Part shown: positions 6,084 through 8,796 of the stretch, one piece after another | How the letters are laid out: every line of letters begins with the position of its first letter | How positions within the stretch are numbered: position 1 is the first letter of the stretch | Source of the DNA: Escherichia phage ETEC-TG | Sequence record: OR786310.1 | DNA length: 64,000 nt | Direction: 5' to 3' (one strand) | Notes under the pieces: generated by a model | The model's input: only the letters and a program-made list of their open reading frames with translations | What the model was told of the DNA's origin: nothing | Databases searched by the model: none | Position numbers and translations under genes: made by a program

Positions 6084-6476
6084 ATGAATCTAAAGACTAA
6101 AACTGTATTAAGTTTTGTTTTAATTGTTGTTCTTATTCTTGCCGGAATGTTTGCTTATAACAAGATACGTGAGTCTGGCTACAAAGATGGTGTTGCCTAT
6201 CAAACGCAAGTATATCAAGCAGCCCAAGCAAAAGCAAAACAAGATTTTGATGTTCTTCAAAAAAGAGCAGATGAAGAAAGAGCATTATTAAATACTCAAA
6301 TAAACAACTTGTCTAAAAACAATGCACAATTAAAAGCAGATTTAGAGAAGAAGAAACAAACGATCAACGAGGATACAACGAATTATGCAAAAACTAATTC
6401 TGGCAGTATGTCTTGCTTTGCCCCTAATGATGACGGGTTGTTCATCATCAACAAAAGTTTCCCCAGTTCTTATTGA
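6084..6476 (+). CDS. type II membrane coiled-coil protein (i-spanin-like)
   Basis: N-terminal TM helix VLSFVLIVVLILAGMFAY then coiled-coil; overlapped by a lipoprotein gene in another frame. Confidence 0.4.
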   Translation: MNLKTKTVLSFVLIVVLILAGMFAYNKIRESGYKDGVAYQTQVYQAAQAKAKQDFDVLQKRADEERALLNTQINNLSKNNAQLKADLEKKKQTINEDTTNYAKTNSGSMSCFAPNDDGLFIINKSFPSSY

Positions 6477-6711
6477 TGAGTGTAAGGCTGTAGCCATAGA
6501 AAAGGTTAAAGGTCCAGATTCGGACTTGATGGATAAAGTATCGACACCTGTGCCATACACTAAAAATCAAATTGCAAAAGGGGTTAGTAGATCTGAAGTT
6601 GTTAACAACCAAACTCAAAACAATGCTCTTTGGGAGCAAGATAGACGAAAGGTTCTAGGTTTACAAACATATATTAAAACACTGCAAGAAAAAGGTATTA
6701 TTGCTGAATAA
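6385..6711 (+). CDS. lipoprotein (o-spanin-like)
   Basis: Signal peptide with lipobox LMMTGC; overlaps 3' end of 6084-6476. Confidence 0.4.
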   Translation: MQKLILAVCLALPLMMTGCSSSTKVSPVLIDECKAVAIEKVKGPDSDLMDKVSTPVPYTKNQIAKGVSRSEVVNNQTQNNALWEQDRRKVLGLQTYIKTLQEKGIIAE

Positions 6712-6720
6712 GGAGGGAAT

Positions 6721-8796
6721 GTGGCAAAGAAAAAGGCAGCAGGTAGTTTAGCTGGAGTAGATATTGAAGTAAAGGCTCAACCAGGTAAACAGACTCTTGC
6801 AATGGATTTAATGCCAGAAGTTATGATTTATGGTGGTGCCGCTGGATGTGTTTCTGCTGAAACGGAATATCTTACAAAAGATGGTTGGAGGCAGATTAGT
6901 GAATATTCGGGAGAGGATATTTACCAATACAATCCTAAGAATAAGCGTTTAGAATTGGTAACACCTTATTTTGTAGAATACGATTTAAATGGAGATAACC
7001 TATACAGAATAACAAATGGTGTAGGATTATTCCAAGAACTTAGTATGGAACACCGTTTTGTATTCTATAAGAAAAAGAAATCAAAGAAACATTTCGAGAT
7101 TCTTGTAGGAGATCTTATTGCATTACAGCAAATAGGAAAACCCCTGCAAGGTTATGTAGAAAATCCATTCGGTAAACGTGTTCCTTTTAACATACCTGGT
7201 AAAAAGAGCACTTACTTAAAAATACACGAGGTTATTTCAACAGATGATAAGAAATATTGTTTTGAGACTCCAAGCAGCTATATTGTCTTTAGACGTGGCG
7301 ATCACTGCTTCGTTACTGGGAATAGCGGCAAGTCTCGTCTGCTATTGCTGAAAGCTTTAAAATACGCCTACAAAGACCCTTTGTTTGGTGGAATACTTTT
7401 CCGTAAGAACACCACTGCTCACCGTAAACCAGGTGGTCTGTTTACAGAAGCAAAACGTTTGTATCTTCCTTTACAACCACATGTAAAAGAAAGTACAATG
7501 GATATCATTTTTGAAGCCACTGGTGGTGGAACCCTCAAATTTGACCATTTGGAAAATGATAACGTAACAGCAGAAACAAACCATCAGGGTACACAGTATT
7601 CAATGGTAGGTTTTGACGAGTTAACCCACTTCACACAATATGAAATGCTCTATCTTCTGGGACGTATGCGTTCAGAGTCAGAAACAAGTTTCATGTTGTG
7701 CACATGTAACCCTGACGCAGATAGTTGGGTTTTGAATTGGGTGTTACCTTATCTTGATGAGGGTGGTTATCCTAGAGAAGATATGTGTGGTAAACAAAAA
7801 TATTTCATCATTGTTAACGATGAACCTGTTTTTGCTGACACACCTGAAGAACTGAAAGAAAAATATCCAGAAAACTGTTTCATGGAAAACCCTAATACAG
7901 GGGAGACAGTTGTTATTGAACCACAAACTTTCGTATTTATTGGTGGGACAATATTTGATAACCCAGAACTCATTAGGCTTAACCCTAATTACTTAGCACA
8001 GCTTAAATCACAAACAGCTATCAAAAGAGCACAGCTTCTGGACGGTTGTTGGTTTGCACGTATCCAGAAAGAATCTTTCTTTCAACGTGAATGGTTACAT
8101 AAAATATCTTATAAAGATGTTCCTAACAATCTTAAACTAATGCGAGCATGGGATAAAGCTGTTTCAGTTCCTACAGAAACTTACCGTTATCCAGACTATA
8201 CAACATCTGTCAAAATGGGTAAAGACCAAGATGGTAATATCTACATCTTTGGCGACTATGATTATGATGCTGTGGATGAGAAAAGTAAAATTTTCGGAAG
8301 GTTTCGAAGACTACCTGGGGAAAGGGATAACCTGATTCTAAATCAATGTAAGATTGATGGACCAGAAGTTACAGTAGTGCTTCCTAAAGACCCATCTGGT
8401 GCTGGGACAATAGAATACACAGAGTCTGCAAAGAAACTTATTCTAGAGGGTTTTGTTGTTAAACCAGATGCTATGCCAGGCAACAAGAAAAAACTTCAGC
8501 GTTTTATGCCTTTTAGTAGTGCGTGTCAAAACGGCTTTGTTTATATTGTTGAAGATTCTTTCCCTAATGTGGAAACTTTAACCCACTTTTATAAAGAATT
8601 GGAATCTTTCAATGGTGAAAGATCTACAGCCACTATTAAAGATGACATTCCCGATGCTGCTGCCTCTTGTTTTAATACTCTGTCAAAAGAGAATACTTTC
8701 AAAGCAGTAGCAATCCCTACAACAACAAATGCTCCTACAGGATACAGTAGAATGAACAGCGGATTTCACCAACCGTATAGTGTCCGTAAAAGATAA
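6721..8796 (+). CDS. terminase large subunit, interrupted by a putative mini-intein
   Basis: GTG start after AGGAGGG RBS; removing the insert reconstitutes Walker A YGGAAG|SGKS; Walker B-like MVGFDE; directly upstream of portal. Confidence 0.65.
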   Translation: MAKKKAAGSLAGVDIEVKAQPGKQTLAMDLMPEVMIYGGAAGCVSAETEYLTKDGWRQISEYSGEDIYQYNPKNKRLELVTPYFVEYDLNGDNLYRITNGVGLFQELSMEHRFVFYKKKKSKKHFEILVGDLIALQQIGKPLQGYVENPFGKRVPFNIPGKKSTYLKIHEVISTDDKKYCFETPSSYIVFRRGDHCFVTGNSGKSRLLLLKALKYAYKDPLFGGILFRKNTTAHRKPGGLFTEAKRLYLPLQPHVKESTMDIIFEATGGGTLKFDHLENDNVTAETNHQGTQYSMVGFDELTHFTQYEMLYLLGRMRSESETSFMLCTCNPDADSWVLNWVLPYLDEGGYPREDMCGKQKYFIIVNDEPVFADTPEELKEKYPENCFMENPNTGETVVIEPQTFVFIGGTIFDNPELIRLNPNYLAQLKSQTAIKRAQLLDGCWFARIQKESFFQREWLHKISYKDVPNNLKLMRAWDKAVSVPTETYRYPDYTTSVKMGKDQDGNIYIFGDYDYDAVDEKSKIFGRFRRLPGERDNLILNQCKIDGPEVTVVLPKDPSGAGTIEYTESAKKLILEGFVVKPDAMPGNKKKLQRFMPFSSACQNGFVYIVEDSFPNVETLTHFYKELESFNGERSTATIKDDIPDAAASCFNTLSKENTFKAVAIPTTTNAPTGYSRMNSGFHQPYSVRKR
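6847..7323 (+). other. putative mini-intein (159 aa, Cys43 to Asn201) in the terminase P-loop
   Basis: Begins CVSAETEYLTKDGW, internal S-x-x-H block (LSMEHRF), ends ...FVTGN with +1 Ser; no endonuclease domain. Confidence 0.55.

What the first reader, a model, noticed from the sequence alone, without database searches (positions are those of the whole stretch)
6847..7323. Putative mini-intein splitting the Walker A P-loop of the large terminase
The terminase ORF has a 159-codon insertion that starts with Cys (CVSAETEYLTKDGW), contains an S-x-x-H block, and ends in Asn followed by Ser. Removing it joins YGGAAG to SGKSRLLL, giving a canonical terminase P-loop. It has no homing-endonuclease domain, and the penultimate residue is Gly rather than the usual His, so the splicing chemistry may be atypical.
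Basis: partly seen in the sequence, partly recalled or inferred. Interest (0 to 1): 0.65.

Follow-up and report, generated by a model that had tools for sequence, protein, structure and literature searches.

The report
Mini-intein inside phage terminase P-loop
A 159-residue self-splicing protein element (a mini-intein) sits in the middle of the ATP-binding loop of the DNA-packaging enzyme of a phAPEC8-like E. coli phage; inteins at such sites are a known kind, but this one is unannotated and belongs to a large phage family that carries the catalytic cysteines of two different splicing chemistries at once.

Summary
Window 6847-7323 is an in-frame 159-codon insert in the large terminase ORF (6721-8796). 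It runs from Cys1 to Gly158-Asn159 and is followed by Ser. Removing it restores YGGAAG|SGKSRLLL.

It is a real mini-intein.
- Intein-free TerL homologues run straight through the site.
- Two Vibrio phages with 88% identical exteins show a filled and an empty site.
- A full-length relative with an extra middle domain occupies the same site in an Avunavirus TerL.
- A family profile hits the solved AceL NrdHF intein (6ZGQ, E 5e-15), and the AlphaFold model matches HINT folds with 6ZGQ first.
- Insert and extein have co-diverged under equally strong purifying selection (dN/dS about 0.05).

The penultimate Gly is a family hallmark, not a one-off.

The insert has the class-3 intein constellation (Cys138 at F:4, Thr157 at G:5, Arg70 at B:11) together with a class-1 Cys1.

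Natural relatives lack either Cys1 (Pro or Ala instead) or the F:4 Cys. None was seen lacking both, though the sample is too small for that to mean much.

Pfam, NCBIfam and the GenBank records inspected do not recognise the intein. Splicing itself is inferred, not shown.

Verdict: new member of a known kind, of moderate interest.

The parts
6721..8796 (+). Large terminase (TerL) precursor ORF, 691 aa; 532 aa after splicing
   Evidence: Terminase_6N, Terminase_6C; 99.7% identical to TerL of Escherichia phage nieznany and other Phapecoctavirus; phrog_979, E 1.4e-216.
6721..6846 (+). N-extein (42 aa), ending in the first half of Walker A (GGAAG, 6832-6846)
   Evidence: It aligns with K354 'MIYGGSAG'.
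6847..7323 (+). Mini-intein, 159 aa, no homing endonuclease domain
6847..6888 (+). Block A (C1 VSAETEYLTKDGW14). Cys1 is the class-1 nucleophile position.
   Evidence: C1, T6, E7, L9, G13 and W14 are invariant or nearly so in the family. Cys1 is present in 165 of 165 representatives but is replaced by Pro or Ala in 7 of 88 family members found with a pattern that left residue 1 free.
7039..7059 (+). Block B (L65 S66 M E H69 R70 F71): B:7 Ser, B:10 His, B:11 Arg, B:12 Phe
   Evidence: hhalign aligns S66/H69/R70/F71 with S65/H68/R69/M70 of AceL NrdHF. The roles of those residues are given in PMC7891396.
7252..7296 (+). Block F (K136 Y C138 F E T P142 S S Y I V F R R150). Cys138 is at F:4, the class-3 branch-point position.
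   Evidence: The family Cys aligns with residue 124 (C124A) of 6ZGQ. It is conserved in 165 of 165 representatives, 78 of 78 loci and 84 of 88 unique inteins.
7303..7326 (+). Block G (H153 C F V T157 G158 N159) plus Ser+1 (7324-7326): G:5 Thr, G:6 Gly, G:7 Asn, and the +1 nucleophile
   Evidence: TGN 130 and SGN 28 of 165.
7324..8796 (+). C-extein. It starts with the second half of Walker A (SGKS, 7324-7335) and includes the stop codon.

Best explanation
The insert is a functional, endonuclease-less mini-intein that removes itself from the TerL precursor after translation. Splicing joins Gly42 to Ser+1 and so creates the Walker A loop GAAGSGKS, without which the packaging ATPase cannot work.

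It belongs to a large phage-borne intein family. The family signature is C1, [ST]xxH, Cys at F:4, and [TS]-G-N followed by S/T/C. Its closest characterised relative is the AceL NrdHF intein, which splices by the class 3 route.

Most likely chemistry (inferred):
1. The Cys138-His69-Thr157 triad takes the N-extein acyl group onto Cys138 as a branched thioester. It does so either by direct attack on the Gly42-Cys1 bond or after an N-S shift at Cys1.
2. The acyl group passes to the hydroxyl of Ser+1.
3. Asn159 cyclises, helped by Arg70 (B:11) rather than by a penultimate His.
4. An O-N shift makes the peptide bond.

Cys1 is a retained alternative or additional nucleophile.

Lacking a homing endonuclease, the element cannot spread by itself. 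It has been inherited vertically with TerL in Phapecoctavirus and its relatives.

My probability that it is a splicing intein is about 0.92. My probability that Cys138 is required is about 0.55-0.6. The confidence given is for the whole statement.
For: SHOWN BY SEQUENCE OR COMPUTATION
- Exact in-frame insert with intein termini.
- Intein-free homologues: Vibrio phage K354 TerL (55% identical extein, 'YGGSAGSGKSRLLL') and Felixounavirus TerL are contiguous across the site.
- Filled and empty site pair: Vibrio phage 277E43-1 versus K354, exteins 88% identical, with the insert exactly between GGSAG and SGKS.
- The same site in Avunavirus 24-2-1 TerL and in IMG/VR loci L066-L071 holds 324-329 aa versions with an extra middle domain.
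- Homologous inserts with the same termini occur in RtcB, PhoH, DnaB-like helicase, DNA polymerase, RNR, ThyX, a methylase and an RpoB-like protein.
- The family profile against PDB hits 6ZGQ AceL NrdHF at E 5.1e-15; other inteins score E 0.004-0.7. hhalign gives 97.4% probability.
- The AF2 model has pLDDT 75.6. The top 45 Foldseek PDB hits are all inteins, BIL or hedgehog domains, with 6ZGQ first (E 5.7e-6, TM 0.58-0.60).
- Intein and extein co-diverge (87 vs 87-91% and 69-70 vs 69-70% aa identity). dN/dS is 0.043-0.055 for the intein and 0.047-0.066 for the extein.
- C1, H69, C138, R149, G158 and N159 are invariant in TerL mini-inteins down to 27% identity.

FOR THE CYS138 ROUTE
- AceL NrdHF has the same S..H-R, C(F:4)..P and T-G-N|S pattern. 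In that intein C124 is essential, T144 and R69 are important, and G145H is dead (PMC7891396).
- The F:4 Cys is present in 165 of 165 representatives.
- In a search that left residue 1 and F:4 free, 7 of 88 unique inteins have Pro1 or Ala1 with the F:4 Cys, in intact ORFs. They lie next to Cys1 sisters in a neighbour-joining tree at about 5 separate places.
Against: - No experiment: splicing, the spliced junction and the nucleophile used are all inferred.
- Pfam and NCBIfam intein models do not match the insert.
- The structural model is only of moderate confidence, and I could not measure active-site distances.
- Against a Cys138-dependent route: Cys1 is conserved in 165 of 165 top representatives and 81 of 88 pattern-defined members. 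That is unlike canonical class 3 inteins, where residue 1 is not a nucleophile.
- Four of 88 relatives lack the F:4 Cys (Gly, Asn or His) yet keep Cys1 in intact ORFs, so the scaffold can also work by the class 1 route.
- B:12 is Phe, not the class-3 Trp.
- AceL NrdHF is a distant relative (59 bits, against more than 113 bits for family members scored with the related profile A3).
- The Pro1 and Ala1 variants come from metagenomic contigs whose activity is unknown.
Confidence: 0.55

Rival explanations
1. It is the same self-splicing mini-intein, but with ordinary class 1 chemistry. Cys1 performs the N-S acyl shift and the thioester is passed directly to Ser+1. Cys138 merely occupies the position usually held by the F:4 Asp, in an assisting or structural role.
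For: - Cys1 is present in 165 of 165 representatives and 81 of 88 pattern-defined members.
- Relatives with Gly, Asn or His at F:4 keep Cys1 and have intact ORFs.
- B:7 Ser and B:10 His form the class-1-like SxxH, and B:12 is a class-1-like hydrophobic residue.
Against: - The F:4 Cys and G:5 Thr/Ser are almost invariant, which is unexpected for a mere substitute for Asp.
- The closest characterised relative uses the F:4 Cys as its obligate nucleophile.
- Cys1 has been replaced by Pro or Ala repeatedly in intact genes.
Confidence: 0.33
2. It is a degenerate, non-splicing HINT-like insertion that stays in the mature terminase. Alternatively, it is an inactive intein in a non-functional TerL copy.
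For: - No experimental evidence of splicing.
- There is no penultimate His and no F:13 His.
- Curated intein HMMs do not match.
- Some GenBank records call it an 'endonuclease domain'.
Against: - A 159-aa domain between the fourth and fifth residues of GxxxxGK[ST] is incompatible with a P-loop.
- This is the only TerL-like ORF next to the portal gene, and more than 130 cultured, viable phages carry the insert.
- Every residue needed for splicing is invariant, under dN/dS of about 0.05.
- AceL NrdHF, which shares the 'missing' histidines, splices in minutes.
Confidence: 0.05
3. Splicing is conditional. Cys1 and Cys138 lie next to each other in the active site and can form a disulfide that blocks splicing under oxidising conditions, so that TerL maturation becomes redox-gated. 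This is compatible with either chemistry and is an add-on, not an exclusive alternative.
For: - In 6ZGQ the modelled F:4 thiol is 3.0 A from the N-scissile carbonyl (PMC7891396), so a Cys1 thiol would be within reach.
- Both cysteines are conserved.
- Redox control through catalytic cysteines is documented for the class 3 Msm DnaBi1 intein (abstract of PMC6195587).
Against: - There is no direct evidence, and distances could not be measured on the model.
- The E. coli cytoplasm is reducing.
- Conservation of both cysteines is explained more simply by catalysis.
Confidence: 0.1
4. It is not a protein-level element at all. It would instead be a group I intron, a mis-assembly, or two separate genes.
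For: Other phage TerL genes in this comparison are interrupted at the DNA level (24-2-1 and 277E43-1).
Against: - A continuous open frame with no stop codon.
- Protein-level homology, and purifying selection acting on the codons.
- The same sequence occurs in 64 independent records at 99% identity or more.
Confidence: 0.01

Closest known systems
AceL NrdHF split intein (PDB 6ZGQ; Hoffmann et al. 2020, PMC7891396), an 'unusual' class 3 intein with an MCT instead of a WCT triplet
   Same: - It is the best sequence match (E 5e-15) and the best fold match.
- The catalytic pattern is the same: B:7 Ser, B:10 His, B:11 Arg, a hydrophobic non-Trp B:12, Cys at F:4 followed by a Pro four residues later, no F:13 His, and G:5 Thr - G:6 Gly - Asn followed by Ser+1.
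- It comes from a phage-like contig.
   Different: - AceL NrdHF starts with Ala1; the window intein starts with Cys1.
- AceL is naturally split, with a GIY-YIG gene between the halves, and sits in an RNR beta subunit. The window intein is contiguous and sits in TerL.
- Identity is only about 20%.
- The GW of block A is absent in AceL.
Mycobacteriophage TerL inteins (Kelley et al. 2016, PMC5050341), sites TerL1-a and TerL1-b in the P-loop
   Same: - They are inteins in the Walker A loop of phage large terminases.
- Splicing is needed to form the active site.
- Non-His penultimate residues are common in phage inteins. Bethlehem gp51 has Gly, and its G316H mutant splices worse.
   Different: - The TerL type differs. 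Here it is Terminase_6; in that study the Terminase_6 proteins had only site f, in the C-motif.
- The position within the loop differs: G|SGKS here, against K|T and one residue away there.
- It is a different intein family, with no detectable sequence relation tested here.
Canonical class 3 (WCT) inteins: MP-Be DnaB, Msm DnaBi1, Mch DnaB1 (PMC2807308, PMC7664689)
   Same: - Cys at F:4, Thr at G:5 and Ser/Thr at +1.
- A preference for P-loops of helicase-like ATPases and terminases, and links to phages.
- The Mch and Msm DnaB1 structures rank 4-12 in the fold search.
   Different: - They lack an N-terminal nucleophile, have Trp at B:12, and usually keep the penultimate His (THN).
- The family profile does not reach them by sequence.
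[quoted passage not shown]
   Same: Cys1 together with Cys at F:4.
   Different: I could not read that paper (it is not held). I therefore cannot say whether any member of the present family was among them. They were described as polyphyletic and were treated as class 1.

Membership tests
Intein (protein-splicing HINT domain) | In-frame insertion in a conserved host protein, precisely absent from homologues | tested here: met
   K354 and Felixounavirus TerL are contiguous across the site. The 277E43-1 / K354 pair shows a filled and an empty site.
Intein (protein-splicing HINT domain) | Nucleophile at intein residue 1 (Cys/Ser/Thr), or an alternative internal nucleophile | tested here: met
   Cys1 (6847-6849) and Cys138 at F:4 (7258-7260).
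Intein (protein-splicing HINT domain) | Block B T/S-x-x-H | tested here: met
   S66-M-E-H69. H69 is invariant.
Intein (protein-splicing HINT domain) | C-terminal Asn followed by Cys/Ser/Thr at +1 | tested here: met
   N159 followed by Ser. In the family, +1 is S 70, C 59, T 36.
Intein (protein-splicing HINT domain) | Penultimate His (usual, but not obligatory) | tested here: not met
   Gly158. Gly is found in 161 of 165 family members. Inteins without this His are known to splice.
Intein (protein-splicing HINT domain) | HINT fold | tested here: met
   AF2 model with pLDDT 75.6. The top 45 Foldseek PDB hits are all HINT domains. Confidence is moderate (TM about 0.5-0.6).
Intein (protein-splicing HINT domain) | Match to curated intein profiles (Pfam, NCBIfam) | tested here: not met
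   No family at E <= 1 for the insert. The full-length relatives are also unmatched, apart from NCBIfam RtcB_rel_intein2 for Lederberg RtcB, far below its curated cut-off. I read this as a gap in the libraries, not as evidence against homology, given.
Intein (protein-splicing HINT domain) | Demonstrated excision and extein ligation | not testable with these tools
   Needs expression followed by SDS-PAGE and mass spectrometry.
Mini-intein (no homing endonuclease) | Splicing domain only, about 130-200 aa, with no endonuclease domain between blocks B and F | tested here: met
   159 aa. Relatives of 300-342 aa have about 170 extra residues, with LAGLIDADG-like motifs by eye ('VAVMADG', 'DEIFHWDG'), that are absent here. 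The type of that domain was not confirmed (no Pfam or PDB hit).
Class 3 inteins | No nucleophile at residue 1 | tested here: not met
   Cys1 is present. The later literature says a residue-1 nucleophile is 'not required' in class 3 inteins, rather than necessarily absent (PMC5222942).
Class 3 inteins | Cys at block F position 4 | tested here: met
   Cys138 aligns with C124 of AceL NrdHF.
Class 3 inteins | Thr at block G position 5 | tested here: met
   Thr157. T or S is found in 163 of 165 family members.
Class 3 inteins | Trp at block B position 12 | tested here: not met
   Phe71. It is never Trp in the family. AceL NrdHF has Met here and is nevertheless class 3.
Class 3 inteins | Absolute requirement for the F:4 Cys, and a block-F branched thioester intermediate | not testable with these tools
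   Needs C138A/S and C1A mutants and trapping of the intermediate.
Class 1 inteins | Cys/Ser/Thr at residue 1 that forms the linear (thio)ester | tested here: inconclusive
   The residue is present (Cys1), but its use cannot be tested. Natural Pro1 and Ala1 relatives argue that it is dispensable in this scaffold.

The most novel reading that the evidence does not exclude
The window's intein represents a large phage family that bridges class 1 and class 3 protein splicing. Most members carry both nucleophiles. They either can splice by either route, or they use an acyl relay from Cys1 to Cys(F:4) to Ser/Thr/Cys+1.

Loss of Cys1 has repeatedly produced true class 3 inteins of the AceL NrdHF type (Pro1 or Ala1 forms), and loss of the F:4 Cys has produced plain class 1 inteins.

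That would give a concrete divergent path from class 1 to class 3. It would argue against the proposal that the class 3 HINT fold arose convergently (PMC7664689). It would also provide a tractable test system in an E. coli phage.
Probability: 0.25. Interest if true: 0.75.

Novelty: new member of a known kind. Interest (0 to 1): 0.5.

Why it matters
Practical points:
- TerL of Phapecoctavirus and its relatives is mis-sized in annotation. These are common coliphages, some of them used in therapy work. TerL is sometimes annotated as having an 'endonuclease domain', when the mature protein should be 532 aa, not 691.
- Pfam and NCBIfam miss this intein family, although it has about 1,200 clusters (50% identity) at E <= 1e-10.
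- A small, cis-splicing relative of the fast AceL NrdHF intein, native to E. coli phages, could be a useful protein-engineering tool.

Conceptual points:
- The family combines the class 1 nucleophile with the class 3 Cys-His-Thr triad, and it shows natural losses of either cysteine.
- How class 3 inteins arose is debated: by divergence from a phage class 1 intein, or by convergence. This family makes the question testable with a handful of point mutants.

Tried and rejected
- Pfam and NCBIfam scans of the insert and of full-length relatives found no intein family.
- Single-sequence phmmer against PDB found nothing meaningful. Only the nine-sequence family profile found 6ZGQ.
- The search for homologous proteins returned mainly short metagenomic fragments, both with the insert and with the profile. 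They were useful only as permitted input for later jobs.
- The search for related loci with the family alignment used a pattern that starts with Cys, so it could not test variation at residue 1.
I replaced it with a hand-made degenerate DNA pattern (Y-x-F-9x-RRNG-4x-TGN). It samples only the RRNG/TGN subset, which does not include the window's own RRGD motif.
- The absence of members lacking both cysteines (0 of 88) is not statistically informative: about 0.3 would be expected by chance.
The fragment-based alignment was visibly misaligned, so I did not use it.
- The middle domain of a full-length relative gave no PDB hit, so 'LAGLIDADG' rests on motifs seen by eye.
- Tori & Perler 2011 is not held. 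What I say about it comes from other papers' summaries and from memory.
- Literature searches for an intein in phAPEC8 or Phapecoctavirus TerL found only a methods sentence in the BASEL paper.
- A strict class 3 assignment was considered and not adopted, because Cys1 is present and B:12 is not Trp.
- About 135 phage records have an extein at least 60% identical, against 133 with the intein. I did not find out what the other two are.
Full report
WHAT IS THERE

The window is a phAPEC8-like E. coli myophage (Stephanstirmvirinae, Phapecoctavirus). The ORF at 6721-8796 is 99.4-99.7% identical at the DNA level to the 'terminase large subunit' of Escherichia phage nieznany, tuntematon, Mt1B1_P17 and others. 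It is followed by the portal gene.

In that ORF, codon 43 is TGT (6847-6849), codon 201 is AAT (7321-7323) and codon 202 is AGC. The stretch between them is 477 nt, or 159 codons. It begins CVSAETEYLTKDGW, contains S66-M-E-H69 and ends T157-G158-N159.

Deleting it joins YGGAAG to SGKSRLLL. Pfam Terminase_6N then matches from profile position 1 (E 4e-19). In the precursor the match starts only after the insert.

IS IT AN INSERTION?

A tblastn search with the spliced extein against 50,697 phage records finds 1,255 records. Vibrio phage K354 TerL (55% identical) and Felixounavirus TerL (34.5%) align as one piece across the junction. K354 reads MIYGGSAGSGKSRLLL.

Vibrio phage 277E43-1 has an extein 88% identical to K354 over 132 residues. 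It carries a 146-aa insert, C...ITGN, exactly between GGSAG and SGKS. This is a filled-site and empty-site pair.

The window's insert and the Vibrio insert are only 32% identical, although their exteins are 55% identical.

IS IT AN INTEIN?

Curated libraries say nothing. Pfam and NCBIfam give no hit at E <= 1, and phmmer against PDB gives nothing.

However, tblastn of the insert finds significant or borderline matches inside other phage proteins:
- RtcB of Corynebacterium phage Lederberg (E 5e-8)
- another TerL, in Avunavirus 24-2-1 (1e-6)
- DNA polymerase, PhoH, RNR and a primase/helicase

Translating these genes shows inserts that all begin C[VLY][SD]xDTE.L[TS]..GW. They all have [LV][ST]..H and [YW]C[FV], and they all end [TC]GN followed by S, T or C.

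Most are 300-340 aa, with an extra middle domain. The Avunavirus one sits at the same TerL site (IIGGAAG|C...VVTGN|SGKS). Several sit at the equivalent position of other P-loops: PhoH (AG|TSKT) and a helicase (SG|TGKS).

A profile of nine splicing domains hits the solved AceL NrdHF intein (6ZGQ) at E 5.1e-15 over nearly its full length. It hits Mtu RecA, a BIL domain, Spl DnaX and gp41-1 weakly. hhalign gives 97.4% probability.

An AlphaFold2 model of the insert has mean pLDDT 75.6 (14-sequence alignment). Its top 45 Foldseek PDB matches are all inteins, BIL or hedgehog domains. 6ZGQ is first (E 5.7e-6, TM 0.58-0.60), followed by Prp8 and the class 3 Mch and Msm DnaB1 inteins.

The insert is therefore a HINT-fold intein without an endonuclease domain.

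IS IT MAINTAINED?

64 phage records carry the insert at 99% or more, 67 at 80-90% and 2 at 60-80%. This parallels the extein identity bands.

Against IMG/VR relatives, intein and extein identities are the same (87 vs 87-91%; 69-70 vs 69-70%). dN/dS is 0.043-0.055 for the intein and 0.047-0.066 for the extein.

Among TerL mini-inteins down to 27% identity, C1, T6, E7, L9, G13, W14, P40, H69, C138, R149, G158 and N159 are invariant.

So the element has been inherited vertically with TerL and is under selection as strong as that on the terminase. This is what one expects if failure to splice is lethal. Splicing itself is inferred.

WHAT KIND OF INTEIN?

The closest characterised relative, AceL NrdHF, was described as an unusual class 3 intein (PMC7891396). 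Its features are:
- Ala1
- an 'MCT' instead of a 'WCT' triplet
- Ser65 (B:7) and His68 (B:10)
- Arg69 (B:11), which H-bonds to the C-scissile carbonyl and partly compensates for the missing penultimate His
- Cys124 (F:4) as the essential branch-point nucleophile
- a Pro-Gly kink in block F and no F:13 His
- Thr144-Gly145-Asn146 followed by Ser
- G145H abolishes activity

The window intein has S66, H69, R70, F71, C138 (aligned with residue 124), P142 and T157-G158-N159|S.

Penultimate Gly is also documented in a mycobacteriophage intein, where changing it to His slows splicing (PMC5050341).

The difference from AceL NrdHF is Cys1. The window intein has both the class 1 nucleophile and the class 3 Cys-His-Thr constellation.

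HOW GENERAL IS THIS?

A profile search of 1.84 billion cluster representatives gives 5,899 hits at E <= 1e-3 and 1,196 at E <= 1e-10.

In the best 150 proteins I could delimit 165 inteins, because some proteins hold two:
- Cys1: 165 of 165
- block-F Cys: 165 of 165 (one displaced by one residue)
- C-terminal tripeptide: TGN 130, SGN 28
- +1 residue: S 70, C 59, T 36
- B:11: Arg in 95 of 163
- B:12: V, I, M, L or F, never Trp
- 154 are full length and 8 are mini
- 98 sit in a P-loop just before [STC]xK[ST]

The profile favours Cys at position 1. I therefore scanned IMG/VR with a DNA pattern for Y-x-F-(9)-RRNG-(4)-TGN, which leaves residue 1 and F:4 free (the scan stopped at 120 loci). Among 88 unique inteins whose N-terminus could be located:
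- 77 have Cys1 and Cys F:4
- 6 have Pro1 and Cys F:4
- 1 has Ala1 and Cys F:4
- 4 have Cys1 with Gly, Asn or His at F:4
- none lacks both

All of the exceptions lie in long intact ORFs with both exteins. The Pro1 and Ala1 forms sit next to Cys1 sisters at about five separate places in a neighbour-joining tree. One example is L127 (Pro1), 76% identical to L184 (Cys1) at the same GPFG|S.KS site. Another is L135 (Pro1), 61% identical to L177 (Cys1), with an identical N-extein.

The zero count for double loss is not statistically meaningful, since about 0.3 would be expected.

The informative point is that this scaffold has repeatedly dispensed with Cys1 while keeping the F:4 Cys, and occasionally the reverse.

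MECHANISM

Shown:
- the anatomy
- homology to an intein whose class 3 chemistry was demonstrated
- conservation of the Cys138/His69/Thr157/Arg70/Asn159/Ser+1 set

Inferred:
- the precursor splices
- Cys138 takes the N-extein as a branched thioester, directly or after a Cys1 N-S shift
- Ser+1 receives it
- Asn159 cyclises with help from Arg70

I put about 0.92 on 'functional splicing intein', about 0.55-0.6 on 'Cys138 required' and about 0.33 on plain class 1 chemistry with Cys138 as an accessory.

Conservation of Cys1 is the main argument for class 1. Part of that conservation may be mutational: from TGY, the tolerated Ala and Pro codons are two substitutions away, and Gly at position 1 inactivates AceL NrdHF. 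This last point is my own inference.

COMPARISON WITH WHAT IS KNOWN

- Inteins in terminase P-loops are well known (PMC2807308; PMC5050341). In the mycobacteriophage survey, however, Terminase_6-type TerL had only a C-motif site, and the P-loop sites were K|T and its neighbour, not G|SGKS.
- Later work states that class 3 inteins do not require a residue-1 nucleophile (PMC5222942).
- The origin of class 3 is debated. Proposals are a phage class 1 ancestor that lost residue 1, convergence from a cysteine protease (PMC7664689), and gp41-1 as a 'transition' form (PMC12245125).

I found no paper or GenBank annotation that recognises the Phapecoctavirus TerL intein. Two records call it an endonuclease domain.

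VERDICT

As an object it is a new, unannotated member of a known kind. Its family context, with both nucleophiles present and natural losses of either one, is the part worth following up.

Noticed in passing
window 7069-7095: A conserved basic run, Y-KKKK-S-KK-H, lies just after block B of the intein and is encoded by A-rich DNA. It is invariant in orthologues down to 62% identity. Metagenomic ORFs P0003 and P0004 are frameshifted exactly there, probably through homopolymer assembly errors. Its function is unknown.
   Followed up: partly
L004 1414-2259 (Vibrio phage 277E43-1); L003 1911-3257 and 3497-3913 (E. coli phage 24-2-1): Other TerL genes carrying this intein are interrupted a second time. 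The 277E43-1 ORF stops right after Walker B, at 'GFDEL'. The 24-2-1 TerL is annotated as two CDS followed by an HNH homing endonuclease gene. Protein P0044 has a second intein at 'GFDELTHY|C'.
   Followed up: no
P0021, P0023-P0027, P0033, P0038, P0044, P0046, P0050, P0060, P0069, P0096, P0099, P0167: Many database proteins carry two inteins of this same family in one polypeptide.
   Followed up: no
L195 and L207 versus L141 and L145: Inteins in an RpoB-like motif (GDKF|S.RHGQKG) exist with Cys at F:4 (L141, L145) or Gly at F:4 (L195, L207), all with Cys1. This is a natural pair for testing what the F:4 Cys does.
   Followed up: partly
L008 1430-4231 (Pseudomonas phage KIL1): The primase/helicase CDS is annotated as a join of two pieces. 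The annotators therefore removed an intervening sequence at the DNA level, although the frame reads straight through an intein (C...ITGN|TGKS).
   Followed up: no
window 6084-6476 and 6385-6711: Two overlapping ORFs lie just upstream of TerL. The second begins MQKLILAVCLALPLMMTGCSSS, a lipoprotein signal. They look like an i-spanin / o-spanin pair. The nieznany record calls the first an 'Rz-like spanin'.
   Followed up: no
window 6847-7323 versus flanks: The intein has a lower G+C content (34.4%) than the C-extein (38.4%) or the window as a whole (39.7%). Third-position G+C is similar (27.0% vs 28.4%), so there is no sign of recent acquisition.
   Followed up: yes
phage records H43 (OR525700.1) and H48 (LC483177.1, L210 1872-3971): TerL is annotated as 'large terminase with endonuclease' or 'with N-terminal endonuclease domain'. 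No record inspected annotates an intein.
   Followed up: yes
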